Below are positions 10,605 to 59,174 of a stretch of DNA of 64,000 nucleotides, piece by piece. The position numbers were made by a program, and so were the translations under genes. The notes beneath the pieces were generated by a model. That model saw only the letters and a program-made list of their open reading frames with translations. It ran no database searches and was not told the DNA's origin. This stretch comes from Cetorhinus maximus (taxonomy: Eukaryota): the NCBI RefSeq assembly GCF_964194155.1, contig NC_135889.1, forward strand, positions 110,360,001 to 110,424,000. Direction: 5' to 3'. Within the stretch, counting starts at the first letter, position 1, and each line of letters starts with the position of its first letter.

Positions 10605-10806
10605 TTTACTTCACCTACATCGCCATTCCTTCACTGTCACTGGGTCAAAATCCTGGAACTCCCTTCCTAACAGCACTGTGGGTATTCCCCCAACACATGG
10701 ACTCAGCGGTTCAAGAAGGCAGCTGACCACCCCCTTCAAGGGCAATTCGGAATGGGCAATAAATGCTGGCCTGGCTGGCAACACCCACACCTCATGAAAG
10801 ATAAAA
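10605..10806 (+). mobile_element. 3' tail of CR1-like LINE family A
   Basis: Carries the tail motif ATGGGCAATAAATGCTGGCC, which recurs in many copies across the window. Confidence 0.8.
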
Positions 10807-16406: not shown

Positions 16407-16932
16407 TTAAAATTCATTCACAGGATGTGGGCTTCGCTGGCTGGGCCAGCATTTATTGCCCATCCCTAGTTGCCCTTGAGGAGGTAGTAGTGAGCTCCCT
16501 TCTTGAACCGCTGAGTCCATGTTATGTAGGTACACCCACAGTGCTGTTAGGGAGTTCCAGGATTTTGACCCAGCGACAGTGAAGGAACGGCGATATATTT
16601 CCAAGTCAGGATGATGAGTGACTTGGAGGGAACTTCAAGGTGTTGGTATCCCCATCTATCTGCTGCTCTTGTCCTTCTTGATGGTAGTGGTCATGGGTTT
16701 GGAAGGTGCTGTCTAAGGAGCCTTAGTGAATTCCTGCACCGCATCTTGTAGGTGGTACACACTGCTGCTACTGTGCGTCAGTGGTGGAGGGCGTGAATGT
16801 TTGTGGATGCAGTGCCAATCAAGTGGGCTCCTTTGTCCTGGGCGGTGTCAAGCTTCCCGAGTGCTGTGGGAGTTATACTCATCCAGGCAAGTAGAGTATT
16901 CTATCACACTCCTGGCTTGTGTCTAGTAGATG
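16407..16932 (-). mobile_element. 5'-truncated LINE family A copy
   Basis: Collinear with the 3' ends of the copies at 17160-19765 and 59175-60020. Confidence 0.85.
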
Positions 16933-17159
16933 GTGCTGAGGGAGGGAAAGGCCTAGAGCTGGAAATACCTCTGAAATTTAAAGATTTTACGAAAATCTGA
17001 AATACCCACCAAATATGTGTGAATTAACTTCACTAATTTATTATGGAGGAGGGTTATCACCAGTAAGTTATCCTTTATTTTAAAAGGCAGTGGTCATGGG
17101 TTGGAAAGCCCCTGGAAGTTGCACAAACCACCACCCCCAGTTCTCTGGATTTTTAAAAA

Positions 17160-19765
17160 TTCTTAGGGCATGGATGTGGCTGGCTGGGCCAGCACTTTTA
17201 CTGCCCATCCGTGATTGCCCTTGGTGAGCAGCCTTCTTGAACTGCAGGTGGTGCAGGTAGACCCGCAGTGCTATTAGTAAGAAGTTCCAGGATTTTGACC
17301 CAGCGACAGTGAAGGTAGAGTGATACAGTTCCAAGCCAGGATGGTTTGCGACTTGGAAGGGAACTTGCAGGTGGTGATGTTCCCAAGTATTTGCTGCCCT
17401 TGTCCTCCTTGGTGGTACAGCTCACGAATTTAGGATGTGCTGTCAAAGGTACCTCGGTGATTTGCTGTAGTGTATCTTGTAGATCGTACACGTTGTTACG
17501 GTGCATCGGTGGTGGAGGGAGTGGATGTTGAAGGTGGTGGATGGGTTGCCAATCAAGCAGGCTGCTGTGTCCTAAATGATGTCGAGCTTCCTGAGTGTTG
17601 TTGGAGCTGCACTCATCCAGGCAAGTGGAGAGTATTCCATCACACTCCTGACTTGTACCTTGTAAATGTTAGACAGGCTTTGGGGAGTCAGGAGGCGAGT
17701 TACTCGCCACAGGATTCCTAGCCTCTGACCTGCTCTTGTAGCCATAGTACTTACACGGCTCGTCCAGTTCAGTATCTGATCAATGGTAACCCCCAGGATG
17801 TTGATAGTGGGGAATTCAGCAATGGTAATGCCATTGATTATCAAGGGGAAATGGTTAGATTCGCTCTTGTTGGAGATGGTCATTGCCTGGTACTTGTGTG
17901 GCAGGAATGTTATTTGCGACTTGTCAGCCCAAGCCTGAATGTTGTCCAGGTCTTGCTGCATATGGGCATGGACTGCTTCAGCATGTGAGGAATTGCAAAT
18001 GGTGCCGAATATTGTGCAATCAGCAGCAAACAGTCCCACTTTTGATCTTATGATAGAGGGAAGGTCATTGATGAAGCAGCTGAAGATGGTTGGGCCTAGG
18101 GCGCTACCCTGAGCAGCACCTGCAGTGATGTCCTGGGACTGAGATGATTAACCTCCAACCACAACCATCTTGCTTTGAGCTAGGTATGACTCCAACCAGC
18201 GGAGAGTTTCCACCGCACCACCCCGATTCCCACTGACTTCAGTTTTGCTAGGTGTCCTTGATGGCACACTCGGTCAAATGTTGCCTGATGTCAAGGGCAG
18301 TCACTCTCATCTCATCTGTGGAGTTCAGCTCTTTTGCCCTTGTTTGGACTAAGACCAAATGTAACGAGGTCAGGGGTTGTGTGGCCCTGGTGGAACCCAA
18401 ACTGAGCATCAGTGAGCAGGTTATTGCTGAGTATGTACCACTTGATAGCACTCTTGATGACCTCTTGCAACACTTTGCTGATGGAGTGTAGACTGACGGA
18501 GTTGTAATTGGCCAGGTTGTATTTGTCCTGCTTTTTGTGGACAGGACATACTGGGCAGTTTTCCACATTGCTGGACAGATGCCAATGTTGTAGCTGTACT
18601 GGGACAGCTTGGCTAACAGCATAGCTAGTTCAGGAGCAGATGTCTTCAGTACTGTTGCCGGAATGTGTCAGGTCCTACAGCCTTTGCAGTGTCACGTGGA
18701 GTGGATCGGATTGGCTGAAGACTGGCATCTGTGACGTTGGTGGGATCATCCACTCAGCACTTCTGGCTGAAGATGGCTGCAAGTGCTTCAGCCTTGTCTT
18801 TTGCACTGATGTGCTGGGCTCCCCCATCATTGAGGACGGGGATATTTGTGGAACCTCCTCCTCCAGTGAGTTAATTGTCCACCACCATTCATGACTGGAT
18901 GTGGCAGGACTGCAGAGCTTATGCTGCTTTTGATGTTTGTCATGTACGTAGTCCTGTGTTGTACATTTACCAGGTTGACACCTCAGTTTTAGGTATGCCT
19001 GCTGCTGTTCGTGACATGCCCTCCTGCACTCTTCATTGAACCAGGGTTGATCTGTCAGCTTGATGGTAATGGTAGAGTGGTGGATTTGCAAATTGTGGTT
19101 GCATACAATTCTGCTGCTGATGGCTCACAGCACCTCATGCATCCCCAGTTTTTAGTTGTTAGATCGGTTCGAAATCTAACCCATTAGCACAGTGGTAGTG
19201 CCACACAACACGATGGAAGGTATCCACAATGTGAAGACGGGACTTCGTCTCCACAAGATGGTCATTCCTACCAATATTGTCATGCACAGATGCATCCTTG
19301 ACAGGTGGGCTGGTGAGGACGAGGTCAAGTGGATTTCTCCCTCTTGTTGGTTCTGTCACCACCTGCCACAGACGCAGGCTAGCAGCCATATCCATTTGGA
19401 CTCAGCCAGCTCTGTCAGTGGTGGTGCTACCGAGCCACTCTTAGTGATAGACATTGAAGTTCCCCACCCAGGAGACATTCTGTGCCTTAGCCATCTTCAG
19501 TGCTTCTTCCAAGTAGTGTTCAACATGGAGGAGTACTGATTCATCAGCTGAGGGGGAAAGACGGTAGGTGGTAAATCAGCAGGAAGTTTCCTTGCCCATG
19601 ACTGATCTGATGCCAGTAGAATTCATGGGGTCCAGGGTCGATGTTGAGAACTCCCAGGACAACTATACCACTGTGCCACCACCTGATGGGTCTGTCCTGT
19701 CGATGGGACAGGACATACCCAGATGGTGATGGTGGTGTCTGGTGGTGTCCGCAGGGCACCATGAG
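17160..19765 (-). mobile_element. Long, frameshifted CR1-like LINE family A (APE endonuclease and RT remnants)
   Basis: APE C-terminus: QVVTEPTRGRNPLDLVLT...NDH. Linker: DQPWFNEECRRAC. RT: QFGFHQGH, ALDI, LFAADCTIF, QQDLDNIQAWAD, YKVQVRSVMEYSPLAW. Multiple stops and frameshifts. Confidence 0.9.
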
Positions 19766-19899
19766 CACTTGGCACGTCATAACATTCAAGGTTATGGGCC
19801 AAGTGCTGGTAAATGGGATTAGGTAGGTAGGTCAGGTGTCTCTCACATGTTGGTGCAGACTCAATGGGCCGATTCTGTGCGATTCTGATTCCTGTCCTT

Positions 19900-20280
19900 G
19901 CTACACTACATTATCCCCCAGTGCTTCGAAATTAAAATTCCTGCGCACATCGTTAAGTTCCTTCGTGGCCTGGGCCCTCCTCTCATCTCCTTCAGAACAC
20001 TGAACCTCTGGCTGTGACCTCTAGTGCACCTACTTCTTTGCCCCACCATTGGCACCCATACCTTCAGCTATCTCAGCTCCATGCTCTTGAATTCCCTCCC
20101 GTAGCTCCTCTTCCTTGTCACCATCCCACACTCAAGCCACTTCTTTGATCAAGCTTTTAGGCATTACTTCGAACATCTCCTTTGGCTGGAAGCCATTTTT
20201 ATTTGAGCATACATCATGAAGTAGCTTGGTATTTTTTTTCTATATTAAGGTCATTCTAAAAGCGCAAGTTGCTGTTGCTC
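19900..20280 (+). mobile_element. L2 3' fragment
   Basis: Similar to the L2 3' ends at 7300-7735 and 44265-44700; tail GCAAGTTGCTGTTG. Confidence 0.6.
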
Positions 20281-21642
20281 TTTAACATTGCATGGCATTA
20301 AAAAGCTGTAACTTCTTCCAGTATTCTGCCCAATACTACTACAACAGATGACACAACAAAAACAGGGATCAATCATTTCACTGCTTTACCAGGGAGACTG
20401 CTTGCTCAGAACGGCTGCTACTTTCGCTTAACCCAACAGTCGTAATAAGTTGTTTTGAATGTTGATGCGATAGGATGCTATGGAAAAAGTAAAGAAAAGC
20501 TTTCCTATGAATCTTTTTCTAATGCTATCAATTTCAATAGCCTTGCTACAAATATTAAAAAGCAAGAGGACAGTCAGATTGTTTTAGATACACTCAGAAC
20601 TGAATCAGGCCACTCTTCTTCACAGACCATTGATCCTTCTACACCTGATCAATTCTTTTTTCCTGTGTTCTACTGAAGTCAGCATCCAATAGGGAAATAG
20701 CACATTGCAGAAGTAAATTCCAAAATATGGGTACTACCTTCTGATTAAGTGAGCTCATGGCCTTTTTAAGCTTATAAATCATAACCTCAGATCTTGATTC
20801 TGCAAAAGCAAAAAGTCTACCCACCTGTTCGATCCTATTCATCAGTTTAAAAACTGGATTCAAGGTATCTCCCATGCAGAAAAAAAACTACCTCCACCAA
20901 TGTAACCAGGATAACCTTTACTTTCTTCAATGGTTCAGGTTTTTAGGTCATTCTCACTAGCTTTTTCTTTTCTGAAGGATACACAGTGATAACAGCATTT
21001 CTAAGTATGACCCAACACTTCAAATACATTTTGCAACTTGCATCTCTTCCTTAAAACTTACCGAGATAATTGGCTTTCCATTGCCTTTCAAATTTGACAT
21101 TTTCTCTGATCTACCATAATGGTGCACTTATGTATTCACGTTTTTATTTTTAAAATTTCAATACTGATTATTTATTCAGCCAGATAAGTTTGAATTCCAT
21201 CACCCTTGCAAGTATTGCAAGCACAAGTCCCAGAACCAATCCCTATAGTAGACCAGTCACAGCTACCTAATTAAAAGTCATTGATAACTAAAATCTATTT
21301 CTTGTCCAGACATTTCACTATCTAAACTACAACTTAATTATTTCCAGAAGCTGTCAATTCAATGCTTTGTAAATGAACCTCATTACACTCCTGGTTTAGA
21401 AAACATCTGATAACAACCACAAAATATTCTAGTTCAGGTTTTGGTAGCTGGCACAATCCAGGCTACATCAACAAAAATGATGGTTGTTTCACATAAAATT
21501 ATGGCTGTTTCTCTTAAAACTACTTACATTATAAAACATGTAGATTCAAAAAATATTCCAACTCCGAGAAACCTCATGACCAGTTACTGCAATGAATTGT
21601 TGCCAAAAAGTTTTTGACATATAATTTATTCCTCACTCTAGT

Positions 21643-21842
21643 NNNNNNNNNNNNNNNNNNNNNNNNNNNNNNNNNNNNNNNNNNNNNNNNNNNNNNNNNN
21701 NNNNNNNNNNNNNNNNNNNNNNNNNNNNNNNNNNNNNNNNNNNNNNNNNNNNNNNNNNNNNNNNNNNNNNNNNNNNNNNNNNNNNNNNNNNNNNNNNNNN
21801 NNNNNNNNNNNNNNNNNNNNNNNNNNNNNNNNNNNNNNNNNN
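21643..21842. other. Assembly gap (200 N)
   Basis: Run of N. Confidence 1.
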
Positions 21843-23544
21843 TATGAAAGTGTTGACTGAGGTGCTTTTAATGACAAACATTGAATTGCACGTAAGGCAG
21901 CTGAAGTGTCCAAATATTTGCCAGAAAAAAAAGGATCACAATCAAAGGTAATCATTGATAATTGATTTCTAAGGGTCACCATTGACCAAATGTTTGATTA
22001 TACTGCTAGTCAGATTGTAAATGAAGATTGCACTTGTCATGTTAAAAATAAATGGCTTGCACCAAATTCCAACACGAAACATATGTAGGGCTGATAAAAT
22101 TATAATTTAATCATTAAAATGGTTTATGATGCTATCGCTTTGTCTTTAATTCCTGTTTCATTTCGCAGTTTTATTTTCATAATTCAAGGTATACCTTTAA
22201 AATGTAAAATACCTTTGCAAATTAAGAGCTATGCAGCAGTTCATGTCTTTGAACTATGTTTCAATGCAACGAGTAACAAAATAATAGATACTAATAATTG
22301 TGAATATATTTGTATATTTTGACTCCTTTTGTCTATAGGTGACTTTATATCAAAAAGTTGTTCACTGGCTGTAAAGCATTTTGGGCACCCTGAGCTTGTG
22401 TGTGACACAATACAAGTGTAAGTTTTGTGTAAGTGTAAGTGTAAGTTTTCTTTCTTTATTTCCACTGTGTTAATATGTTACAATATTACAACAGCTATTA
22501 TAGTCCTTTAACGAAATTAAACACCAATAACTTTCTGGACAAATTCCATTGTACACAAGCTACAGCATGCTATTGGCCTTCTAGGATAATAGCATTTGTA
22601 ACAAAAACCAAAACAAAACCGTTAAAGAGAAATGTAATGATTTCTTCTAAACTTCTCATATGTACAGCTTGTTTGGAGCTTGTTTCCCGGCAGTAATACA
22701 CTTCAGAATTGAGAAAATACTATTTCACTCTCAGGGCTTGCTATGGCAGTGTGACTCAGTTGGTAGCACGCTTGACTCTGAACAATGTCGATTTGAATGT
22801 CATTATAGATTGAAGCACACAACCCAGGCTGATGCTTCAGCTTAGGCAGTGCCTCATTGCTTGGGGAGTCGTTACAGTGAGGCCCTACCATATCTTCTCA
22901 TGTGGCTATAAAGGATCCTTTTGTATTATTGAGATACCCAAATGGACAAGTTATGCCTAACATGAAAGGTCGAATAGGCTGGGCTCTTTTCTCTAGACAA
23001 GAGAACAGTAAGGTGTCACCTGATTGATGTCATTTAAGATTATGAAAGGATTTGATAGGGTAAATGTAGAGAAGATGTTCCACTTGTGACAAGACCAAAA
23101 TTAGGGCCATTAATACAACATAGTCACTAACAAATACAGAATATTCAGGCGCATATCATAGGTGCACTTAAGGGGAAGAAAGGAATACTGTAGGCTTCTC
23201 CAACCTTTGTGAGTGAGGTGGGGGGGGTTCCACAATTATATTTTTTTCCTCATTCAAGGGGCCAATGAGCAGATTTTGGAACGATATATGAATTTTAAAT
23301 AAAATTGTGTGTGAAGAAAAGAAACAATTTGCTGAGCAAAACTAAAGTGATGTCAAAAACAGCAAATGGTTAATTTAAAAAAGAGTAATTAATAAAAATG
23401 ATCAGTAGAGTGTATGAGTGTGTGTGTGTCTGGCTTACTCCCAGTCTCAGGGTGTTTACTCACTCACCCTCACCCAGTGTGAGAGTAGGTGAGTGTATAT
23501 GTTGAGTGACTGAGAATCCTAAGACTGGAAGTGAGCCAGACACA

Positions 23545-23592
23545 GACACACTCGCTCCCTCGCTCTCACACATACACACACTCACTCCCTCG

Positions 23593-23623
<31 letters not shown>

Positions 23624-23693
23624 GCTCTCACACACACACACACTCGCTCCCTCGCTCTCACACACACACACTCGCTCCCTCGCTCTCACACAC
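23545..23693. repeat. Compound (CA)n / CTCGCTCCCTCGCTCT microsatellite running into a gap
   Basis: About 5 units visible, followed by 130 N at 23694-23823. Confidence 0.95.
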
Positions 23694-23823
23694 NNNNNNN
23701 NNNNNNNNNNNNNNNNNNNNNNNNNNNNNNNNNNNNNNNNNNNNNNNNNNNNNNNNNNNNNNNNNNNNNNNNNNNNNNNNNNNNNNNNNNNNNNNNNNNN
23801 NNNNNNNNNNNNNNNNNNNNNNN

Positions 23824-24980
23824 GGCCCCGCAGCACCCTCTCTCTCCCCAGACCCCGCAGCACCCTCTTTTTCCCCGGGCCCCGCAGCATCCTCTTTTTC
23901 CCCGGGCCTCGCAGCACCCTCTCTCTCCCCAGACCCCGCAGCACCCTCTTTTTCCCGGGCCTCGCAGCACCCTCCCTCTCCCCAGACCCCCGCAGCACCC
24001 TCTTTTTCCCCGGGCCCCGTAGCACCCTCTCTCGCCCCAGGCCCCGCAGCACCTTCTCTCTCTCCCTGGGCCCTGCAGCACCTTCTCTCTCCCCGGGCCT
24101 CACAGCACTCTCTCTCTCCTCGGGCCCCGCAGCACCCTCTCTCTCCCCGGGCCCCGTAGCACCCTCTCTCTCCCCGGGCCCCGTAGCACCCTCTCTCGCC
24201 CCAGGCCCCGCAGCACCTTCTCTCTCTCCCTGGGCCCCGCAGCACTCTCTCTCTCCTTGGGCCCCGCAGCACCCTCTCTCTCCCCGGGCCCCGCAGCACT
24301 CTCTCTCTCCCCGGGCCCCGCAGCACTCTCTCTCTCCTTGGGCCCCACAGCACCCTCTCTCTCCCCAGGCCCCGCAGCACCTTCTCTCTCTCCCTGGGCC
24401 CCGCAGCACCTTCTCTCTCCCCGGGCCTCACAGCACTCTCTCTCTCCTCGGGCCCCGCAGCACCCTCTCTCTCCCCGGGCCCTGCAGCACCTTCTCTCTC
24501 CCTGGGCCCCGCAGCACTCTCTCTCTCCTTGGGCCCCGCAGCACCTTCTCTCTCCCCGGGCCCTGCAGCACCTTCTCTCTCCCGGGCCTCACAGCACTCT
24601 CTCTCTCCTCGGGCCCCGCAGCACCCTCTCTCTCCCCGGGCCCTGCAGCATCTTCTCTCTCCCTGGGCCCCGCAGCACTCTCTCTCTCCTTGGGCCCCGC
24701 AGCACCCTCTCTCTCCCCGGGCCCTGCAGCACCCTCTCTCTCCTCGGGCCCCGCAGCACTCTCTCTCTCCTTGGGCCCCGCAGCACCCTCTCTCTCCCCG
24801 GGCCCTGCAGCACCTTCTCTCTCCCCGGGCCCCGCAGCACTCTCTCTCTCCCCGGGCCCCGCAGCACCTTCTCTCTTTCCCCGGGCCACGCAGCACCTTC
24901 TCTCTCTCCCCGGGCCTCACAGCACCTTCTCTCTCTCCTTGGGCCCCGCAGCACCTTCTCTCTCCCCGGGCCTTGCAGAG
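23824..24980. repeat. GC-rich minisatellite, ~29-32 bp unit GGCCCCGCAGCACYYTCTCTCTCCCCG
   Basis: More than 35 tandem units with a variable (CT)n core. The unit has almost no stop codons, which generates spurious long ORFs. Confidence 0.97.
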
Positions 24981-25190
24981 CAACTCTCTCTCTCCCTCTC
25001 TTCCCCCACCCTCCCAGGCTCTACAGCACCTTCTCTTTTCGTTCCCCTCCCCCGCCAAAATCCTCTCTCTCTCCCCAGCACATTTACCTCCACTAGTGAT
25101 CGCTGCTCGTCTAATCAGAGACTCTTTCTCTACCACATTTGCTGCTAATAGGCTCACTAGTAGATCAAATCCACTAGGGAAACTTGATCA

Positions 25191-27329: not shown

Positions 27330-29280
27330 AAAAATACGAATTAGGAGCAGGGGTAGGCCACTCGGCCCCTCGAGCCAGCTCCACCATTCAATAAGATCAT
27401 GGTTGATCTGAATGTAACTTCAACCCCACATTTCTGCCTACCCCTGATAACCTTTCACCCCTTGTTAATCAAGAATCTATCTAGCTCTGCCTTAAAAAAT
27501 TACAAAGACTCTGCTTCCACCACCTTTTGAGGAAGAGAGTTCCAAAGACTCACAACTCTCAAAGAAAAATTTTCTCCTAATCTCCGTATTAAATGAATGA
27601 CCCCTTATTTTAAACAGTGTCTCCTAGTTCTGAATTCTCCCACAAGGGGAAACATCCTTTCCACATCCACCCTGTCAGGTCCCCTCAGGATCTTAAAGGT
27701 TTTAATTAAGTCACCTTTTACTCTTCTAAATTCCAGTGGATACAAGCCTAACCTGTCCTGCCTTTCCTGATAAGACATCCCACCAATTCTTGGTATTAAT
27801 CTAGTAAACCTCTGAACTGCTTCAAATGCATTTACATCTTTCTTTAAATAAGGAAACCAGTACTGTACACAATACTCCAGATGTGGTCTCACCAATGTTC
27901 TGTACAACTGAAGCATAACCTCCCTACTTTTGTAATCAATTCCCCTCACAATAAATGATAAAATTCTATTAGCTTTCCTAATTACCTGCATACTAACCTT
28001 TTGTGATTCATACACTAGGACACCCAGAGCCCTCTGAGTCTCAGAGCTCTGCAATCTCTCACTATTTAGATAATAAGCTTCTTTTTTATTCTTCCTGTCA
28101 AAATGAATGATTTCACATTTTCCCCACATTATACTCCATTTGCCAGATCTTTGCCCACTTACTTAAAGCATCTATGTCACTTTGTAGCCTCCTTACGTCC
28201 TCTTCACAATTTACTTTCCTACCTCTCTTTGTGTCGTCAGCAAATTTAGCCACCATTCCTTCGGTCCCTTCATCCAACTCATTTATATATGTTGTAAAAA
28301 GTTCAGGTCCCAGCACTGATCCCTGTGGTACACCATTCGTCACATCCTGCCAACCAGAAAAAGACCTATTTATACCAACTCTCTGCTTTCTGTTAGCTAG
28401 CCAATCTTCTATCCATGCCAATATGTTTGCCACTACATCATGAGCTTTTATTTTCTGCAATAATCTTTGATATGGCACTTTATCAAATGCCTTCTGCAAA
28501 TCTAAGTATAGTGCATCCACTGGTTCCCCTTTATGCACAGCGCAAGTGATTCCTTCAAAGAACTCCAATAAATTGGTTAAACATGATTTCCCTTTTACAA
28601 AACCGTGTTGACTCTGCCTGATTACCTTGAATTTTTCTATAATATCTTTAATAATAGCTTCTAACATTTTCCCTATGACAGGTGTTAGGCTAACTGGCCT
28701 ATTGTTTCCTGTTTTCTGTCTCCCTCCCTTTTTGAATAAAAGAGCTATATTTGCTATTTTCCAATCTAATGGAACCTTCCCTAAATCTAGAGAATTTTGG
28801 AAAATTAAAACCAGTGCATCAACTATCTCACTAGCCACTTCTTTCGATACCTTAGGGTGAAGTCCATCTGGGCCTGGGGATTTGTCAGCTCTCAGCCCTA
28901 ACAATTTGCTCAATACCACTTCCCTGCTGATTGTAATTTTCCCGAGTCCCTCCCTCCCTTCTATTTCCTGATTTACAGCTATTTCCGGGATGTTACTTGT
29001 CTCCTTTATAATGAAGACCGAAGCAAAATACCTGTTTAATTCATTCGCCATCTCCTTACTTTCCATTATCAGTTCCCCAGATGCATTCTTTATAGGACCA
29101 ATGCTCACTTTGATAACTCTTTTCTTATTTAAATATCTACAGAAACTCTTACTATCCATCTTTATATTACCAGCTAACTTTCTCTCTTACTCTAATTTTT
29201 CTCTCCTTATTAATGTTTTTGCCATTCTTTGCTGTTCTTTATATTCTTTTCAATCTTCTAACCTGCCACCCGTCTTTGTG
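27330..29280 (-). mobile_element. CR1 LINE, 5'-truncated, RT domain nearly intact
   Basis: The 348-aa and 174-aa ORFs contain KSPGPDGLHP, RPVSLT, QHGFVKGKSCLTNL, LDLQKAFDKV, GVPQGSVLGP, KFADDT and LVRPHLEYCVQYW. One frameshift lies near 28120 and the 3' tail is at ~27335. Confidence 0.95.
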
Positions 29281-33040: not shown

Positions 33041-33897
33041 TTCTTAGCTGCATAATGCTGTCTTGAGCAATTGCAATGTGATAATGCACTATGATCAGAA
33101 AACCATTTACAAGCCATCCCCGGTCTCTTTGAGAAGTTTGAATTATCATTTGATTTGTTCTATGAAAGGTATTAATGGGAGATTTCCAAGAATGATTGTC
33201 CCTGACACCTATTAATAAAAGGACACTGAAAAGTACTATGATTCTTTTAACTCCCTGCTTGAAAATGATGGTTCTACGATCTTGAAAAATGAGAAAATCA
33301 AACCAATTTAACTGGTTATGTTTGTATTTGAATATATCTCTGAATACATAGGCTTTTACCTCACTTTATGTATATTTAGACTGTGCTTAATATTCTTAAT
33401 AAGCCTTTTAAAATTGTAATTATATTCATTATAGTTTTAAGTTTATTAGTCATTCTGAAAAATGAGCATGACAGTGTAACATTCAAGTGAATATATATCA
33501 GTAAGGTTATCCCTGGCATGGGTTAATTGTTGCCCTTAATGTTATGCAATTGTGCAAGGATAGGTCACATTAAAAAGTACCTTTTTGAATTATAGAAAGC
33601 AAGGTCCGCTGGTGGGAACTGTTTTGGAGAAAAACATTCAATAAAAAATAAAATTATATTGCTTATGATACATTTAATTTTGTTTCTGCAAACACATTTA
33701 TTAAATTTTAGATGAGTGGTTCACAAGAAATGTGCATTTATCTGTAGATAAAAGGCAGGATAACCGCGGATAGTCCCTACAACATGTTCCAGCTGTTAAG
33801 GCGATCACCATATGTTCAGGGCATGCTCAATATAAATGTCATTATCTATAAACTTAGTTAATTTTTAATGGTTAGTGACAATTTAAATCCAGATCTG

Positions 33898-33962
33898 TAT
33901 AAAAGCAAACAGTGAACCTTTTAATTTATTTCCTGTTTAACCTTCTTCCAGCAAGGCTCTCA
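33898..33962 (+). promoter_or_regulatory. TATA box and probable short non-coding exon 1 of the FReD gene
   Basis: TATAAAA at 33898-33904. Consensus donor CA|GTAAGT at 33962/3, then a 75-nt intron to TTTTGCAG (34037), 10 nt before the ATG. Confidence 0.6.
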
Positions 33963-34047
33963 GTAAGTGTGGAGGAATTTGATATAAATTTAAAAGTTAA
34001 TTTATAAGATTAACTTATGTGCTTCATCCTTTTGCAGGTTTTCAATC

Positions 34048-34231
34048 ATGAATTTCCACAATCAGTTAATGGCTTTTGCAGCTATTCTGCTGTCTGCTCA
34101 GAGTTTTACTTCGGCAGCTCAGAGTATACTGACCTACAAACAAATGCAACTTAAAGTAGCTAATGCTGCTTTGATACATGAAAGCCAAGTGCACAAGGTC
34201 ATAAATATGAGAGATATATTTCTGAAAACTG
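34048..34231 (+). CDS. Fibrinogen-related (FGL1-like) secreted protein, coding exon 1: signal peptide plus short linker
   Basis: MNFHNQLMAFAAILLSAQSFTSA is a hydrophobic signal-like N-terminus. The exon is preceded by an acceptor and ends at a phase-1 donor G|GTAAGC that matches the phase-1 acceptor at 35583/4. Confidence 0.85.
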
Positions 34232-35583
34232 GTAAGCAATTTCAATAATATTTTTCTGAAAACTTTGGTGTGAACATCAATGAGTTTTCCCTCTTAACTT
34301 ACATATTTTAATTCAAAAATAAGGTTCAGCATTACATTTTTGTTCTCAGTGTCTCAATAATCCCTATGTCTGGTATGGTGCAGCCGACCATGGAATAAAA
34401 CTTTCTATGTTCTGTCTTAATCAGGTCAGGAGAGAACTCACTGCATTCATCAGTATACATTTTCTATTTTGAACACTCTTTAGTCCTTTTTTTAAAGAAT
34501 TGCAATTTAGAGTTTTTTTTTGTCAATGATCACAAATTTGTACTGGTTTTCAAGGAGATATCATAATTGAGAACAAACAGTGGTTTTGTTTTACTTTTTC
34601 ATTTTATAAAGCGTCTTTATATGATTTGAAAGACTCTGTGATCCCAATTTAAAATGAAAACAAGGCCAACTTTTTTTTTCATTTAACCACTTACTCAATG
34701 TATGGTATGAATGGATGAAAAATTCTTAGGAGGATACAATCATAGCTCATTGGTAGCACTGACTAATGACTCAATCAGAATTTGGTCGACATCAACAGCA
34801 CTGGGCTACAAAATGAGATCACCAGGCATTATGCAAACTAGAATTTCGGTTTTCCCTGTCCACAAAATCAGTTTTGAAATGACTTTCCCTTCTTTAAAAT
34901 AATTCCCAAATGGAAATATTTGTCCTTGACTATTGCAAATGTAAGGAATTAAGGGAATGGTGTGCGCAATTTTCTGATATTCACTCATGGTGGGCAGACT
35001 TTTGCACCTGGGCTAGACCTGGAAAATTTTACCATAGATATTCGTGACATTTTAGATGTTACAAGTATAAGTATCTATCCTCTTAAAAGAAACGTATTTA
35101 AAACAAGAGAAAGAAAGCCCCTTTGGCGTAGAAGCTGAGAGATTCAAGCAACAGGTAAAAAGAAACTTCCTTGGTGGTTAAGTGATTAACTGAGTTGACA
35201 ATGTGCCTTAGACTGTAATAATTTTCATATCCTCAGGATGATCCAGTGGTTTCACAGATTGAGTTACACTCGAAGCGTAGTCACCCAGTTTTGTCGGAAA
35301 AATGCTGATTTGTGCACAGCCAGGCCCCACATGAAAGGCAACCAATTCTTCCAATTTAAACTACAGTATAATGGAAAATATAAAAGTTCTATAAATAGCA
35401 TGCTTGGTAGAAAGGTTTTTTTAGGGGCTACATTATTTTACCGAGTTGCATGTTTATTCATAATGTGCCATCTTCTTAAAATAGTTATGAATGTATTTAA
35501 GACACAAGTAAACCAAGCACGGCCATTCATGCAAAAATATACATTAAAATATGCATCAAAAAATTTAATGCTTGTTGTTACAG

Positions 35584-36242
35584 CAAGATTCTCCGAAGAT
35601 TGCGCCAGTCTCCGTCGCCGAGGTTTCACTGAAAGTGGCCTCTACGTGATCCACCCACAACCGACAAAAAAAACGCCCCCCATTGTGGTCAACTGTGACA
35701 TGGCCTATGACTGCGGTATCGGATACACCGTGCTGCATCGGAACAGCAGAGGCAGCGAATTGACGTGGAACGAGACATGGACTACATACAAGTTCGGCTT
35801 TGGCAACATTCAGGGTGACCACTACATTGGCAATGAATACATGTACTACTTAACTAACCAGAAGTGGTATAAAGCAAGAATAATTATAGATGGAAAGAGC
35901 TACGCTGAGTATGACATCTTCCGGTTAGATAATGAGAAGACACACTATAGGCTGTATCTTGGTGCATACAGGGGTAATGCTGGTGATGCACTGGCAAATT
36001 ATACAAACATGGTTGATAATATGCCATTTAGTTCAAGAGATATGGATGCTGATGGTGATGCAGATAACTGTGCTTCAAAGTATGGCGGTGGGTGGTGGTT
36101 TGACACTTGCTCTACTACAAACCCATTTGCCATGTTGACCCAAAAAGAGAACATTCACTGGGAACCTTTCGGCAAGGACGCGAACCATGTCACTCTCATG
36201 GTCAAACCTGTCAAAATGTATTGCCGCTCTGAAGGTTACTAA
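35584..36242 (+). CDS. Fibrinogen-related (FGL1-like) secreted protein, coding exon 2: complete fibrinogen C-terminal domain
   Basis: Acceptor CTTGTTGTTACAG. FReD motifs: EDC, SGLYVIHP, VNCDM, W..YKFGFGN, IGNE, YAEYDIFRL, YRLYLGAYRGNAGDAL, NMPFSSRD.D.D, NCA....GGWWFDTC. Spliced CDS is 184+659=843 nt = 280 aa plus stop. Confidence 0.93.
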
Positions 36243-36355
36243 TTGTAGGTGAAAAACTAGTCTTACTTCAAAATGCAAATATCCTTTTGTGAAATCTGTA
36301 ACCGGGACAATATAGTCCAGATTCTCCATGCCGGGACCTTCGGTGTAATCTAAAA

Positions 36356-36361
36356 AATAAA
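36356..36361 (+). terminator. Polyadenylation signal of the FReD gene
   Basis: AATAAA ~115 nt after the stop, with a T/GT-rich tract downstream. Confidence 0.65.
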
Positions 36362-41843: not shown

Positions 41844-42779
41844 TTACATCCAGCAATCTTTCAGAGTATTTTCAATCATCTCTTTTCTGGAAGTATATGG
41901 AGCATGTTTTAGTCTGAACCAGTGTTTTGGGAACAGGTTTCCATTTGTTGCATACATTTCCACTCCTTTTTTGCCCAGCAGAGAACGAAACGTTCTATTT
42001 CGTGCAAGTACTTTATCATAAAACTCAATGCCTCCCTCCGCATAGTTCTTTGATATTGTAGCTGTGTGGCGGTCTGATTTGTAGTCAAGCCAGTGACTAA
42101 CTGCATCAGAAAGAAGAAAATAACCCACAAGTCCTATTGCTGCTACAGACAGGTTATAAAAGCCACGTAATAATAGAGGGCCAGAGTAAAGGCCAAGGGC
42201 TTGTTTTGCTGCCAGCCCAGTCAGATATGTGCCTGCTAAACAGGCTGATCCTACCAGTGAATGAATGATGGGGCTATTACTCTGCAAATATATAATCTCT
42301 CTTGCAATGGCAAACTTCTGTGCGTCAGATGAGAAGGTGAGGGATTCTCGGAGGGCTTTTCCAACCTCACTGTCCCACTTGACGTCCCTGCCATTGATCA
42401 TGACAATTCGATTAGTTATCCCTTTCCCTTCGTCATCTGTGCTATTGAAATTGGCAGGGATGCCAATGATGGCACCAGCTGGTAACCAAGGAACGCCCGC
42501 ACTCACTGGCTGAAAGCTGAAGGCAGCAAACGCTGTGTAATTCTGTGTTGAATCCACTCCGGCATCTTTAAGCACCTCTTGGAAAGTATCCTGCAACTTG
42601 TCTGAAAGCTGAGCAGGGACTCCTCTTGTCCAAGCTTGGTACAACTTTCCATATGTCCGCTGGGGGAAAACATGACAGAAGGCATTGGCAACAAACAGCC
42701 CTCCACAGGAAACAGCCAGCAATTTTATTCTATGCTTGCTGGCAAATACAGTAAGTTTCCTTACAAACCGACTTGCCAT
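41844..42779 (-). CDS. TMEM177: Transmembrane protein 177 (mitochondrial inner membrane, COX20-associated), single coding exon, 311 aa
   Basis: Recognised motifs: FQEVL.D.GV, FQPVSAG.P.LPAGA..GIPA.F, AQKFAIAREIIYL, GGIEFYDKVL..N...RSLLGK.G...Y...GN..P.H.FRLKH.PYT.R. Acceptor TTTTCTCTTACAG lies 29 nt upstream of the ATG (exon starts at 42808). Confidence 0.97.
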   Translation of the reverse strand: MASRFVRKLTVFASKHRIKLLAVSCGGLFVANAFCHVFPQRTYGKLYQAWTRGVPAQLSDKLQDTFQEVLKDAGVDSTQNYTAFAAFSFQPVSAGVPWLPAGAIIGIPANFNSTDDEGKGITNRIVMINGRDVKWDSEVGKALRESLTFSSDAQKFAIAREIIYLQSNSPIIHSLVGSACLAGTYLTGLAAKQALGLYSGPLLLRGFYNLSVAAIGLVGYFLLSDAVSHWLDYKSDRHTATISKNYAEGGIEFYDKVLARNRTFRSLLGKKGVEMYATNGNLFPKHWFRLKHAPYTSRKEMIENTLKDCWM

Positions 42780-45490: not shown

Positions 45491-47309
45491 TACATCCTTC
45501 CTATCCTTCCCTCAAGACCTCTCAGTTCTTTTTTTACACTCAAATAGGTCTCCCCTCAGTGTCCTCTATTCCAAAGAAAACAAAGCCCAGCTCATCCAAT
45601 CTTTTCTCACAGCCAAAATTCTCCATTCCTGGCGACACCCTCAAATCTCCTCTGTACCCATTCTAGTGTGATCACATCCTTCCTGTAATGCTGTAACCAG
45701 AATTGTCCACAGTACGCTAGTTGTGATTTAACAAGCATTTTACACAGTTCTCCCTGCTCTTTTATTCAAGGGTTGGCCAATAAAAGGAAAGTAACTCGTA
45801 TTGCTTCTTGACCATCTCATCTACCTGGCCTGCTACCATCAGCTATCTGTAGACATACACACCAAAGTCCCTTTGTTCCTCCACACTTTTCATAGTCCTA
45901 CCATTTATTGTGTATTCCATTAGCATGTTTGTCCTCCTGAAATGCATTACCTCACAGTTCTCGGGGTTCAACCCCATTGCCCACTTTTCTGCCCAACTGG
46001 CAGTCCATTGGTGGCTTCCTGTTGTCTATGATTTTCTTCCTTACTATCAACCACACAGCCAATTTTCATGTTATTTGTATGCTGGTTTAGTCTAAATCAT
46101 TAATCACTTCTGCCCAAATGCACTAAATTACTGCCAATAGTATAATTGTACCACAATGGGACAGTTACATTATCACTTCTGCATCAATGTGAAGTGCATC
46201 AGAAATCAATCTACAAAGAACTGACAGCATCTGTCAAGTTAATTCCACTAAAGCCAAGTTATGTGAAACCACCTCAATGGAATGGATCTGCACCACTTAG
46301 ATGAAACTATAGCCTAGTGAGAAGTCAAGGATGGTTTCATAGCTCTAGGCCAACATTAAAATGTAATTGAAGACTAGGGGAAGGGAATTGGGATCTGCCA
46401 GCTCATCATCACATACAGGCAATGATAGTAAACTATTACCTATAGGATAACCAACTCATAGACATTGAATCATGTGGACTGCCCAGCCCACTAGGGAGCA
46501 GTCAGGATGCGTTTAAAATGTGCAGTGAGCTGAGGACATATTGCATTCATGTCTGCTGTGCAGTCAGAGAGCTTACTTAGTCTGGGACTTCACATTTCCA
46601 GAGACAGTTTTAATCCCCTGGATATTACAAGACTGAATACATTTTTAAAAAAAATGTTATTCACAGAATGTGGGGAATCACTGTCAAGGCCAGTATTTAT
46701 TGACCATCACTAACTGACCTTAAGAAAATGGTGGTGGGCCATGTTCTTGAACCACTGCAGTTCTGTGTTGAAAGTACTCCTACAGTGCCTTTAGGGAGTT
46801 CCAGGTTTTGGCCCAGTAACAACAGAGGAGCTGCGACATAGTTCCAAGTCAGGATGGTGTGTGACTTGGAGGGGAACTTGCAAGTGGTGGTGCTCCCATG
46901 CCTATAATTGGGAAGAGGATTCTGGAACCTGGAGCACTGACAAACACATTTATACTGTGGTTACAGACCTAGTCAGGTTTGAAACCAGTCCTCCTAAAAT
47001 AAATGCAGCTGTGGGCTTTATGAATGAGAGATTTTATATGACTATGTTTTGGAATGCTCTGTCTCTGGAATTCAAAGTAAAATGGAGGAATGAAGAGAGT
47101 CATCTGATCTGCTAGGAGTTCCACCTGACAACAAACTTGTGTGGCTTGGTTACCATGAGGGAGGGCGGGCCAGGTCAGAGGCGATCAGAACCTACATGCT
47201 GTATTTCACACCTGAAATCAAAGGCAAGAGCAGCTGGGCTGATTGCAAACGGACTTTCGGTCTCTGAAATTTTGGATAGAGTGAGAGAGACAGGTCTCAG
47301 AGACAGAAG

Positions 47310-48280
47310 GCCGCAGCCAGTGCAGATAAATGGGTCATTCTCAGGATGGCGGGCTGTTACTAGTGGGGTACTGCAAGGATCAGTGCTAGGACCACAGCTG
47401 TTTGCAATCTATATAAATGATTTGGATGCGAGGACCAATTGTAATATTTCCAAATTTGCTGATGCCACCAAAGTGTAAATTGTGAAGAGGCTGCAAGGAG
47501 GCTTCAAGCAGACTTGGACGCCCAAAGTGAATGGGCTAAAACATGGCAGATGGAATATAATGTGAATAAGTGTGAAGTTATTCCCTTTGGTAGAAAAAAC
47601 ACAAAGGCAGAATATTTCTTAAATGGTGGGAGGTTCAGAAGTGCAGATGTACAAAGGGAGCTGGGTTTCCTTGTTCATGAGTCACTAAAAGTTAGCATGC
47701 AGGTGCAGCAAGCACATGGTATGTTGGTCTTCATCGCAAGGGGATTTGAGCATAGGAGTAAAGAAGTCCTGCTGCAGTTGTATAAAACCTTGGTGAGACC
47801 GCACCTAGAGCACCGTGTACAGTTTTGGTCCCTAAGGAGGGATATACTCACCAGAGGGAGTGAAATGGAAGTCACCAGCGTTTTGAAGAATGAGGGCTTA
47901 ACTCACTGAAACTTACAAAATTCTTAAAGGGCGTGACAGGGTGGATGTAAATAATATGTTTCCTCTGGCTGGTGAGTCTAAAACCAGGGGACATAATCTC
48001 AGGATAAGGGGTAGGCCATTTAAGACTGAGATGAGGAGGAATTTCTTCACTCATAAGGTGGTGCATCTTTGGAATTCTCTACCCCAGAAGGCTGTGGAAG
48101 CTCAATTATTGAGCATGTTCAAGGCAGGAATACATAGATTTCTGGAAACTAATGATATCAAGGGATAAGGAGATAGTGCAGGAAAGTGGTATTGGGATAG
48201 ATGTTCAGCCATGATCTAATTGAATGGCAGAGCAGGCATGATGGCCTGAATAGCCTACTCCTGTTCCTATGTACCTATGT
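47310..48280 (+). mobile_element. CR1 3' ~1 kb (RT C-terminal half)
   Basis: [20 protein letters not shown] and LVRPHLE motifs, plus a CR1 tail. Confidence 0.92.
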
Positions 48281-49849: not shown

Positions 49850-50670
49850 TGCGGTGGAAGGAGGCCTTAGCGATAGACTCAAGCCTAGTCTTCGCCGCCT
49901 GTCATCGGGGCAATTGGAACCCCAGCATCATCCCTCTGGGCGGACCTGCACTGCGCCAGCTGCAGCTTTAACTCCAGGCCCCAGTCCATAAAAGGAGCGC
50001 GGGGACCCAAACGAGCTCCTTGGGAGACACGCATTCATGAACGGAGAAGTTTTTTTTCTTCAAAAACGAGCGGCACCGGGTGCAGCAAAACCAGACCCAG
50101 GGCTGGTGTCCCGGGACCTCTGGGGCCTAGTCGGCATCTACAGCCTGAGCCCACCCACCCAGAGACCGAGACTGACTCACTGAACACCCGGGCCTGAGAC
50201 ACCACACTATCAAACAACCTGATCGTTACCCACATTCTCACCCCCACGCAACCCCCCCCCCCAAAACACTAATTTGCTTTCCCCTTTTTACCTCCGGCTC
50301 CAGGAAACCGCACAAGCAGACTCACGTCGCAACACGGTCCACTTTACGCTACTTCCCAGCAGCAGGAGCCGTTGCTCTCGAAATACGGCAGGATTTAGGT
50401 CACGTGCGCCCCCTCCCCCCCTCCTCCGCGCCGCCATCTTTGTGAGGTCAGAGGCTGGTGAACGAGAGGTCGGGTCAATGAGCAGCCATCTTTCTAAGGA
50501 CAAGAGCCAACCAGTGCGAGGGTGGCTCGATGAGCGGCCATCTTTGTAAAGTCGATGGCCAACGAACGAGATGGTGCCTCAATGAGCGGCCATCTTTGTA
50601 AGGTAAAGTCCATGAGCAAGCCCATGAACTGGTTTGTAGAGTCAATGAATGACCATTTTTGGATGAGCTT
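49850..50670 (-). promoter_or_regulatory. TMEM177: CpG island promoter and first exon of TMEM177
   Basis: The main non-repeat CpG-rich block upstream of the coding exon. It has repeated GCCATCTT (YY1-type) motifs, a GTCACGTG E-box at 50399-50406, a GC-rich box, and a minus-strand consensus donor GAC|GTGAGT at 50326/50325. Confidence 0.75.
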
Positions 50671-51054
50671 TTTTTTGGACCCTCTTGCTGGTATTGAGTT
50701 ATTTGTTGGAATTGTCAAATAAAACAATATAACGTATAGAAAAAAAATGACAATTTTTGTAGAGTTAATATGTTACAGTGCATCGAGTGGGAGGAATTAG
50801 TAAATAACCATTGTAAAATATGTTTTAAGAATTAATTTTATGAAGTAGCATTGGTGCCACACAAATGCCAGGCAATGACCATTTCCAACAAGAGAGAATC
50901 TAACCATCTCTGCTTGACATTCAATGCCATTACCATCACTGAATCAATCACTATCAACATCCTGGGGATTACCATTGACTAGAAATTGAACTGGAGCAGA
51001 CATATAAATATTGTGACTACATGAGCAGGTTAGGAATTATCCAGCGAGTAACTA

Positions 51055-52335
51055 ACCATCCTGTGCTCAAATTCCCCTTCGAAATGGAACAGTCAAATGA
51101 ACTCCCTTTCCTTGATGTATTAGTTGTGAAGTCTGACAGGGAGCTTTCTAACACGGTCTACCGCAAGCCTACCTTCACTGGTAAATGCAGCGTTGGGATT
51201 CTTACAGTTCCACACACTATAAGAATGGCCTTATCGGCATCCTCCTAAATAGGGCCCGAGCCATTTTCTCATCATACAAGCTTGATGCTGAAATAGGGCA
51301 CATCAAAGGCATCCTGTGGCATGATGGCTACCCAGCTCAGATTATTTCACGCTGTATATCACACAAACTCATGAACGGGCCTAAGGCCATCACTTTTGGA
51401 CCTGAAAAGTACCCAGTCTACCTTAGAGCAACAGGTGAAACTGGCTGTTTCACACTGCCACTATGCAGTAGCAACACGAGTGGTATTCGCCACTATCAGG
51501 ATGCTGTTGTCAAGCCAAAAATACGTTCTGCCTATCACACAAATAAGTAATGTGGTATATGAATTTCAGTGCCAGTGTAGGCTGTACATCCCAAAGAATG
51601 GCAAATTGTATCAAACAGCATGTCTCTTCTGCTCCAAACAAAAACAAAAAATGCTGGAAAAACTTAGCAGGTCTGACAGCATCTGTCGAGAGAAAGACAG
51701 AATTAACGTTTCAAGTCCGTATGACTCTTCTTCAGAGCAACATTGCCCCTTCTGCTGTTTGGAATGGGCATGGTACAGACCGTACCCAATCAGCCTGCGC
51801 TTGCAAAACTCAAGACACAACCAAAACACAACTCCAACATTAGATGTGATTCCATGATTGGACAATATATGCTAAATAACCCTCAGTGTGCTAAAGATTA
51901 CGTTGACAACCAATTTAAGATTGTCAGTCGGACTTGCAGTGTGGCACGTTTGCATGTACTGGAAGTTACATATATTAGGACTGTTTTTTTGCAGACGAAA
52001 AGAACATGTACACACATTACGCCTGCTAAACAGCTAAACAAAATAAGTGATAATCATTCCTCAGGGCAATATCTTGACCAATCAGGGTCAAGCTGCCTGG
52101 TTTAAATTAAAACAATGTTTGGCAGTTAACTGTCAGTCACCATTAACTGGTGCATTCTCCATGGCAACACCTCTACCAATCAGAGTCCACTGCCAACCAA
52201 TCAGCACTCTCTTCTCATATAGTATAAAGTTGTTGCCTCCCCTGATATTGGTATTCTTGCGATTGCCCTGATTAGTGCAAGATGAAAAGCTTTGACAAGA
52301 TGTCTTTTTTCAGCAATACTCAAGTTCTGTACTAA
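51055..52335 (+). mobile_element. Decayed Penelope-like element (RT thumb, GIY-YIG endonuclease and terminal repeat), with a second PLE-family fragment nested at ~51635-51740
   Basis: HPVLKFPFEMEQSNELPFLDVLV...TVYRKPT, NRARAIFSS...DGYP, NVVYEFQCQC and HVLEVTYI; frameshifted. Confidence 0.88.
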
Positions 52336-58352: not shown

Positions 58353-59174
58353 AATCATATTACTTTAGTGATTGGATGTTCTGGAACTTTGTATTTCCCT
58401 GTGATATGGTTATCAATAATATTCAAGTATCAGTGACTACTAGCATTTCTTTGGCCTCTCTAGCTTCTTCCTTGTCTCCTCCAGAGGATGCTGACTTATA
58501 GTGGGTTAAAATTTCACAGGTACCAACAGCTCCTTTGTCTATGTCACCATGGGAGTTGGGGAGAAGAATAAGTAATACTTCCCAGAAAGAGAACTGGCTA
58601 ACAATCATGTGTAGGAACTCTGATTGATTCAAACCCTCCCCCAAATCCTCCTCCTGCTCACTGTTCCTTAGCCTGGGACACAGAGCAGTGCGGGACTGAT
58701 ACTAGCTAACTCCGGGCTGAAAACTGGGCGATTCTTGGCTCAGTACATTACCATGCAATGGATTTAGTCATTAAGCTATTCCATTTTGTCCACTAGGATA
58801 TCCTTTGGCATCCACAAGGTGAACTTTAATCATTACCTTTAATCCTGAATAGGAAGGAGATTGAGGCGAAAGATATCTGATTTTACAGAACAGTGACAGC
58901 AGTTACTCAGCTAACCTATGTTTGCTGATAATAGGGATTGATGTTGTCTTGGTAAAGGGAGAAGGTCGCTGTAACTGGGAAATAACCATAAATTCTAATC
59001 AGTAGTGAATCAAATTCACTGAATCAAAAGCTATCATTTAATGACAGGTATCCTAGATAGGACTTTCATCCTTAAAATGTTCACATTTTCATTATAAGTT
59101 TAATGATTTATTTGCAAATAAAGATCTTCCCTGTATTTCTCCTCCTTTCTACCATCCTCTGTTGAAGGCATTGA

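What the first reader, a model, noticed from the sequence alone, without database searches (positions are those of the whole stretch)
33898..36361. Compact secreted FReD-only gene (FGL1-like group) with an intronless domain and an atypical cysteine/motif set
Seen: the gene model closes in frame (TATA, short 5' exon, signal-peptide exon, phase-1 intron, one exon for the whole FReD, AATAAA) and gives 280 aa. There is no collagen or long coiled-coil region, only a ~38-aa linker. Departures from the FReD consensus: HYIGNE instead of (F/Y)WLGN, no NLNG after the WW..C motif, a very acidic Ca-loop region (DMDADGDAD), a shortened C-terminal subdomain, and two extra Cys (YDC and the terminal MYC) beyond the four canonical ones. 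Established: ficolin, MFAP4 and ANGPTL FReDs are split over several exons, whereas FGL2 and fibrinogen alpha-E have single-exon FReDs. Inference: the ELTWNETWTTYKFGFGN segment resembles, from memory, the poorly characterised non-mammalian 'fibrinogen-like protein 1-like' proteins. I know of no such gene beside human TMEM177, so this may be an old lectin or matrix gene lost in mammals, with a novel disulfide.
Basis: partly seen in the sequence, partly recalled or inferred. Interest (0 to 1): 0.7.

Follow-up and report, generated by a model that had tools for sequence, protein, structure and literature searches.

The report
Shark gut-type fibrinogen-domain gene, already annotated
This is a real, already annotated shark gene for a small fibrinogen-domain protein, predicted to be secreted, from an old and little-studied vertebrate family whose chicken members coat gut bacteria; it likely binds microbes or mucus, and this particular branch appears to be lost in mammals, birds and ray-finned fishes.

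Summary
The gene is real. [quoted passage not shown] It is not FGL1. It belongs to a clade found in chimaera, sharks, rays, coelacanth, amphibians, lizards, turtles and crocodilians, inside a wider non-mammalian 'FGL1L' radiation. No mammal, bird or ray-finned member was listed. Most of the 'oddities' are family or clade traits: single-exon FReD, short C-terminus and terminal Cys (family), Cys105 (60 of 60 orthologues, 0 of 68 paralogues). The calcium loop is canonical. The fold is an ordinary FReD (pLDDT 93), but the ficolin acetyl pocket keeps only 1 of 4 residues. Chicken paralogues (CDD, DMBT1-L, FGL1-L) are induced by microbiota and coat gut bacteria, so a mucosal microbe- or mucus-binding role is likely, though untested for this clade. 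The Cys105-Cys275 bond is inferred only. The scan met this family before in another shark genome. Verdict: new member of a known kind, modest interest.

The parts
22339..22417 (+). Distal 5' non-coding exon (acceptor-like AG at 22337-22338, donor GT at 22418); start inferred, may be an internal exon
   Evidence: Loose 5' end (49 nt) of the X1 contig at 34038; the 30 letters shown match 22388-22417 with 0 mismatches, 0 expected by chance
33898..33904 (+). TATA box of the likely proximal promoter
   Evidence: Sequence; stretch 33868-33962 conserved in the Heterodontus model P0009; no transcript evidence for it here
33930..33962 (+). Proximal short 5' exon (start approximate), donor GT at 33963
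   Evidence: Sequence; translated stretch matches N-terminal extensions of Heterodontus, Hypanus and Mobula gene models; not used by the one RNA-type contig
34038..34231 (+). Exon with ATG at 34048: predicted signal peptide (about residues 1-24) and conserved N-terminal segment (about 25-62)
   Evidence: (hydropathy only, no SignalP run)
34232..35583 (+). Phase-1 GT-AG intron, 1352 nt
   Evidence: Joint in X1 contig; same phase-1 acceptor before the FReD in 4 of 4 own-genome paralogues inspected
35584..36242 (+). Single exon encoding the whole FReD (residues 63-280) and the stop codon
35712..35714 (+). Cys105, the clade-defining extra cysteine
   Evidence: 60 of 60 orthologues, 0 of 68 paralogues, 0 of 22 canonical FReDs in alignment A2
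36039..36053 (+). D-x-D-x-D calcium-loop motif (D214, D216, D218)
   Evidence: FIBCD1 ligand spacing from PMC3908420 section 15
36171..36182 (+). Site of the family's CxxC pair, here G258/A261 (pair lost)
   Evidence: Both Cys absent together in 4 of 60 orthologues, never singly; runs X1 and X2 also show no Cys codon there
36222..36224 (+). Cys275, terminal cysteine
   Evidence: 59 of 60 orthologues (the exception is a truncated record), 56 of 68 paralogues
36356..36361 (+). AATAAA poly(A) signal (ATTAAA at 36366)
   Evidence: X1 contig ends at 36372
41844..42779 (-). Neighbour TMEM177 (311 aa, single coding exon), convergent with the FReD gene
   Evidence: Atlas score 1.00, 253 of 256 features

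Best explanation
This is an intact, already annotated shark gene for a small stand-alone fibrinogen-domain protein of the non-mammalian 'FGL1L' family, predicted to be secreted, which likely works at a mucosal surface such as the gut as a calcium-stabilised, likely disulfide-linked binder that coats or cross-links microbes within mucus. Shown: gene structure, identity with the RefSeq protein, one spliced contig in a relative, place in a gnathostome orthologue clade, FReD fold, conserved calcium aspartates, altered acetyl pocket, cysteine pattern. Inferred: secretion (hydropathy), tissue and function (from chicken paralogues), the C105-C275 bond, any oligomer, and a ligand other than plain N-acetyl groups.
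For: Identity and range. Tree: query in a 26-row clade at 98/98 (93/94 in a 28-row rebuild); the FGL1L rows split from canonical FReDs at 100/99. Fold: pLDDT 93, pTM 0.88; VIA Z 27-30 to ANGPTL2, FIBCD1, tachylectin 5A, ficolins, all about tied. Function of paralogues: PMC5042506 (passages and Discussion read) reports that chicken FReD proteins CDD, DMBT1-L (FReD+SRCR), 'ANGPTL6', 'ANGPTL1-L' and FGL1-L are among the top host proteins bound to caecal bacteria, and that CDD, DMBT1-L and 'ANGPTL6' are induced by microbiota. The published CDD primers translate to two motifs exactly 50 residues apart (150-bp product) in P0183, 1 of the stored proteins, an FGL1L member; SRCR+FReD members are among our hits. 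The chimaera orthologue's cluster has 28 members, 14 of the 15 listed with cDNA-type AFM accessions, which suggests high expression in some tissue.
Against: No functional or tissue data exist for this clade itself; the chicken proteins are paralogues about 36-46% identical, and birds show no orthologue. The chicken study shows co-purification with bacteria, not direct binding, and notes food particles as a possible ligand. The DMBT1-L primer matched no stored protein. Only 1 of 4 FIBCD1 pocket residues is kept, so the ligand is unknown. The domain is near neutral (net charge -2; clade median -4), not cationic. FGL1L-named proteins also occur in turtle plasma and trout liver, clade not checked.
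Confidence: 0.55

Rival explanations
1. It is a secreted plasma or extracellular-matrix adaptor (MFAP4- or FGL1-like in role) that binds proteins, not microbes.
For: Acetyl pocket not conserved; two FGL1L-named proteins rise in plasma of moribund turtles (PMC8084024 passages) and one is listed in a trout liver infection proteome (PMC6167799 passage); extra Cys could cross-link to matrix.
Against: Those proteins were not assigned to this clade. The only located, function-bearing family members are gut-luminal.
Confidence: 0.25
2. It is a receptor ligand in the manner of angiopoietins or FGL1/FGL2, with the remodelled P-subdomain loop as a receptor-binding face.
For: Best single-sequence PDB match is angiopoietin-1 (118 bits); best profile match is FGL1 (162 bits); one-to-one conservation from chimaera to crocodilians fits a fixed partner.
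Against: These scores are far below those of family members (200-390 bits) and structure matches are tied across FReD types; no coiled coil for receptor clustering; the apparent cDNA abundance of the chimaera orthologue fits a bulk product better.
Confidence: 0.12
3. It is a classical acetyl-binding pattern-recognition lectin like ficolin, FIBCD1 or tachylectin 5A.
For: Same fold; calcium aspartates, the C224-C237 pair and Y228 (FIBCD1 Y405) are kept.
Against: His after the second Cys is Ser; the loop bearing FIBCD1 Y431 is deleted (C237-to-P270 span median 31 in orthologues against 42.5 in canonical FReDs); W443 has no aromatic counterpart by alignment; no collagen stalk.
Confidence: 0.07
4. 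It is a cytidine deaminase, as the database name of some relatives says.
For: P0152 (chimaera paralogue) is named 'cytidine deaminase'; the chicken gene is called CDD.
Against: Only Pfam hit is Fibrinogen_C; fold is a FReD; PMC5042506 lists CDD as a FReD protein; predicted signal peptide. The name looks like a propagated misnomer.
Confidence: 0.01

Closest known systems
[quoted passage not shown]
   Same: FReD-only secreted layout, phase-1 intron then single-exon FReD, TWxExWxxYKxGFGN segment, short C-terminal subdomain, terminal Cys, conserved N-terminal Asn motifs
   Different: Separate clade with Cys105; elasmobranch members insert about 4 residues after C237 and replace xLN by MLT; this species lacks the CxxC pair and has a shorter hairpin at 163-167; no bird member of this clade; the chicken gene labelled FGL1L lies near THSD1/VPS36 on chromosome 1, not by TMEM177 (PMC10976558 passages)
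Human FGL1 (hepassocin)
   Same: FReD fold (TM 0.84 by target length, 32% identity); small secreted protein; source of the database name
   Different: Only 93.7 bits against 200-390 for family members; recalled, not tested here: FGL1 has a multi-exon FReD, a short coiled coil and an N-terminal interchain Cys
Ficolins, FIBCD1, tachylectin 5A
   Same: Fold (Z 27-29), calcium site, P-subdomain disulfide, one pocket tyrosine
   Different: No collagen or membrane stalk; 3 of 4 acetyl-pocket residues absent; C-terminal loop about 10 residues shorter
FGL2 and fibrinogen alpha-E domain
   Same: Single-exon FReD (own-genome loci L008, L009)
   Different: Fall with canonical FReDs, away from the query, in both trees; keep NLNG and the long C-terminal loop

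Membership tests
FReD (Fibrinogen_C) superfamily | Pfam PF00147 above cut-off and FReD fold | tested here: met
   138 bits against cut-off 22; Z 27-30, rmsd 1.3-2 A over about 200 residues
FGL1L family (non-mammalian) | Groups with FGL1L-named proteins apart from canonical FReDs | tested here: met
   Trees; profile scores 310 (own clade, query included in the profile), 219 (paralogues), 173 (canonical)
FGL1L family (non-mammalian) | Phase-1 intron then single-exon FReD | tested here: met
   Query and 4 of 4 own-genome paralogues inspected
FGL1L family (non-mammalian) | Short C-terminal subdomain with a CxxC/CxxxC pair | tested here: not met
   Short subdomain present; the Cys pair, kept in 56 of 60 orthologues, is lost here. 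A lineage-specific loss: Carcharodon shares it
FGL1L family (non-mammalian) | Mucosal expression and binding to bacteria (shown for chicken paralogues) | not testable with these tools
   Runs carry no tissue label
Orthologue of FGL1 or another studied mammalian FReD gene | Closer to the mammalian protein than to FGL1L paralogues | tested here: not met
   Best mammalian PDB matches 118 bits or less; own-genome paralogues 107-159 bits, orthologues 200-390. Mammalian proteins themselves were not in the trees
Ficolin / FIBCD1 / tachylectin acetyl lectins | S1 pocket Tyr405, His415, Tyr431, Trp443 (FIBCD1 numbering) | tested here: not met
   By sequence alignment only: Y228 kept, S238 for His, Tyr431 loop deleted, no aromatic for Trp443. 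F243 of the inserted loop might substitute; not measurable here
Ficolin / FIBCD1 / tachylectin acetyl lectins | Calcium-binding Asp pair before the P-subdomain disulfide | tested here: met
   D216, D218 at Cys-8 and Cys-6, as FIBCD1 D393/D395 to C401
Ficolins / angiopoietins / ANGPTL | Collagen or long coiled-coil oligomerisation stalk | tested here: not met
   Only about 38 residues between signal peptide and FReD
Novel intrachain disulfide C105-C275 | The two Cys lie within bonding distance | not testable with these tools
   The fold tool returns no coordinates; co-occurrence only

The most novel reading that the evidence does not exclude
An undescribed, single-clade gnathostome mucosal defence gene, kept from chimaera to crocodilians as half of an ancient tandem pair beside TMEM177, and lost independently in mammals, birds and ray-finned fishes. 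It carries a clade-specific disulfide (C105-C275) and a rebuilt ligand pocket that recognises something other than N-acetyl groups; lamniform sharks and myliobatiform rays each opened that pocket further by dropping the same CxxC bond. It would mark a pre-IgA, lectin-based layer of gut microbiota control that mammals abandoned.
Probability: 0.3. Interest if true: 0.55.

Novelty: new member of a known kind. Interest (0 to 1): 0.3.

Why it matters
The gene is annotated but unstudied, and its name misleads: it is neither FGL1 nor a deaminase. The family is large in non-mammalian vertebrates and its chicken members are among the top host proteins on gut bacteria, yet the held library showed no paper that defines it (searches; subscription journals are mostly not held, and Doolittle 2012, PMC3575912, could not be opened). 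Sorting it into clades gives testable handles: a conserved orthologue in Xenopus and Anolis, a diagnostic cysteine, and natural variants with and without one disulfide. A specialist would find this useful, not very surprising.

Tried and rejected
First AlphaFold run with 20 sequences was poor (pLDDT 56.9) and was not used. Homodimer prediction gave no verdict (score 0.31, mark 0.32); it says nothing either way. No RNA holder of this species was listed; X7 laid nothing and X2 gave unspliced pieces, one in the intron and one across the acceptor; none of this bears on expression. X6 matches the stretch in one piece but may be the assembly's source, so it is not independent. Laying X1 and X2 on 4000-21600 showed only repeats. 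A furin site before the FReD was considered: R-x-x-R in only 7 of 53 full-length orthologues, a dibasic pair in 39 of 53, neither in this protein, so a propeptide is not supported here. No FReD paralogue lies within 74 kb upstream or 68 kb downstream. Contig C2193 shows no unique overlap with the region, so its placement is open. Assembly error as the cause of the missing CxxC and the short hairpin was rejected: Carcharodon P0272 shares both, and X1 and X2 show no coding indel. Supplements of the elephant shark cDNA paper could not be read; they may give the tissue of the chimaera orthologue. Searches for the zebrafish and chicken gene identifiers found nothing relevant (the second identifier was recalled). 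TMEM37 lies 25 Mb away on C11, so it did not help with synteny.

Full report
Observation. The model closes as described: ATG at 34048, a phase-1 GT-AG intron 34232-35583, one exon to the stop at 36242, 280 residues, six cysteines, TATAAA at 33898 and AATAAA at 36356. [quoted passage not shown] Of four runs laid, one contig of a related organism (X1, RNA by guess) joins the two coding exons exactly and ends at 36372. The proximal TATA and mini-exon stretch is conserved in the Heterodontus model, and similar residues head the Hypanus and Mobula models. Two 5' ends are therefore plausible; neither is shown in this species. The signal peptide rests on hydropathy only.

What it is. Pfam gives Fibrinogen_C alone. 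With 150 sequences the model reaches pLDDT 93 and matches ANGPTL2, FIBCD1, tachylectin 5A, tenascin, fibrinogen and ficolin domains about equally (Z 27-30). Sequence searches return a large family that databases call FGL1L, from lamprey to birds. In a 79-row tree the query lies in a 26-row clade (98/98) of chimaera, sharks, rays, coelacanth, amphibians, lizards, turtles and a crocodilian-cluster sequence (P0060 shares a cluster with Alligator). A 28-row rebuild gave 93/94 for that clade and 100/99 for FGL1L rows against canonical FReDs. No mammalian protein was in the trees, so separation from FGL1 rests on scores: 93.7 bits for FGL1 and 118 for angiopoietin-1, against 200-390 for clade members. 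Of 461 stored proteins, 87 scored into this clade; none carries a mammal, bird or ray-finned name. Both profile searches listed only the best 120 of 195 and of 292 hits, but paralogues already fill the lower ranks, so an ordinary mammalian orthologue should have shown. Remnants and monotreme genomes were not tested.

Neighbourhood. TMEM177 lies 5.6 kb downstream on the other strand. Two FERM_C exons lie about 155 kb and 395 kb upstream on the minus strand; from recall they read as PTPN4 and EPB41L5, the order found at human 2q14. Synteny in other species was not tested. Fused gene models in sawfish (P0025), alligator (P0026) and a skink (P0443) place a paralogue directly upstream of the orthologue, and these paralogues form one clade (98/97, through their close relatives), which suggests an ancient tandem pair. 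Here the matching paralogue is intact on an unplaced 50-kb contig, C2193. At least five more family matches lie on C9 and C19.

The single-exon FReD after a phase-1 intron is shared by 4 of 4 own paralogues inspected. The short C-terminus is a family trait (span C237-P270: median 31 in orthologues and paralogues, 42.5 in canonical FReDs). The calcium loop is canonical: D216 and D218 have the spacing of FIBCD1 D393 and D395 (PMC3908420 section 15). HYIGN is a W-to-Y change shared with other elasmobranchs and many frogs. Loss of NLNG is real: the family has xLN without the following loop, and elasmobranch orthologues insert about four residues and read MLT. The 'linker' is conserved, with two asparagine motifs in all 22 orthologue rows printed, and modelled at pLDDT 92-97.

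Cysteines. In alignment A2, Cys105 is present in 60 of 60 orthologues, 0 of 68 paralogues and 0 of 22 canonical FReDs. The terminal Cys is in 59 of 60 orthologues (one record is truncated) and in 56 of 68 paralogues. A further CxxC or CxxxC pair is in 56 of 60 orthologues and is absent as a pair in four: this species, Carcharodon, Hypanus and Mobula. On the tree these are two independent losses. Joint loss marks that pair as a disulfide, which leaves C105 and C275 as likely partners; from recall of the fibrinogen gamma fold, the last strand runs beside the strand after C105. Against this, paralogues keep the terminal Cys without C105, so it may link chains or mucin. One chimaera cDNA has Ser at 105 (P0274). 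The tools give no coordinates, so the bond is not shown.

How it likely works. FIBCD1 holds the acetyl group with Y405, H415, Y431 and W443 (PMC3908420 passages). By alignment only Y228 is kept, so plain acetyl binding is unlikely and the ligand is open. The best functional lead is PMC5042506 (passages, Discussion and supplement rows read): chicken FReD proteins CDD, DMBT1-L, 'ANGPTL6', 'ANGPTL1-L' and FGL1-L rank at the top of host proteins bound to caecal bacteria, and three of them are induced by microbiota. The CDD primers map to P0183, an FGL1L member; the DMBT1-L primer matched nothing stored. These are paralogues, and the evidence is co-purification. The chimaera orthologue has 28 near-identical records, 14 of the 15 listed with AFM accessions. 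I infer that they come from the six-tissue cDNA study PMC3466250 (passages read), where the text does not mention them; the tissue was not found. FGL1L-named proteins also occur in turtle plasma and trout liver (passages). I commit to a secreted mucosal microbe- or mucus-binding protein at 0.55.

Novelty. The protein is annotated and sits in a known fold and a database-named family: a new member of a known kind. Ten library searches (listings seen, six further papers opened as stated, plus PMC13337447 passages with nothing relevant) showed no paper that defines the family or this clade; subscription journals are largely missing. Interest 0.3.

Noticed in passing
G000:C2193:43655-45190 (+), loci L006, L034: Intact two-exon FGL1L paralogue on an unplaced 50-kb contig. 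Its relatives sit directly upstream of the orthologue in sawfish, alligator and skink gene models; it may belong in the N stretch at window 21643-21842.
   Followed up: partly
G000:C9:37.59-37.78 Mb, loci L002-L005: Cluster of four FGL1L genes as two near-identical, oppositely oriented pairs; they look basic in composition, and one pair lacks the CxxC motif.
   Followed up: partly
G000:C19:96172221-96172865, locus L007: Member of the FGL1L clade that includes lamprey, bird and lizard proteins (a lamprey record is named after zebrafish zgc:194887).
   Followed up: partly
window 22339-22417: The distal exon resembles, from recall, the 3' tail of a shark SINE, so it may be an exonised repeat; one weak similar stretch lies 61 kb upstream.
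   Followed up: partly
window 35886-35900 (residues 163-167): The hairpin after the WYKARI strand is 3 to 9 residues shorter than in other shark and ray orthologues; shared with Carcharodon.
   Followed up: partly
window 23540-24996: Two minisatellites: a 30-bp unit (about 5 copies) and a GC-rich 27-bp unit (about 43 copies), separated by an N stretch.
   Followed up: no
window 3308-3989: Direct duplication of 341 bp at 97% identity.
   Followed up: no
window 17200-19100, 27600-29190, 47100-47900, 51185-52105, 59170-59880: Decayed LINE-type reverse-transcriptase fragments; the 51-52 kb piece resembles, from recall, a Penelope-like element.
   Followed up: no
window 50001-50750: CpG-rich stretch upstream of TMEM177 on the minus strand, a candidate for its promoter.
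   Followed up: no
protein lists: No snake name appears among the listed orthologues, though many lizards do; skates have up to three copies (Rhinoraja).
   Followed up: no
P0152, P0288, P0289: The chimaera paralogue is named 'cytidine deaminase' and 'ryncolin-1-like' in databases; both look like propagated misnomers for a FReD-only protein.
   Followed up: partly
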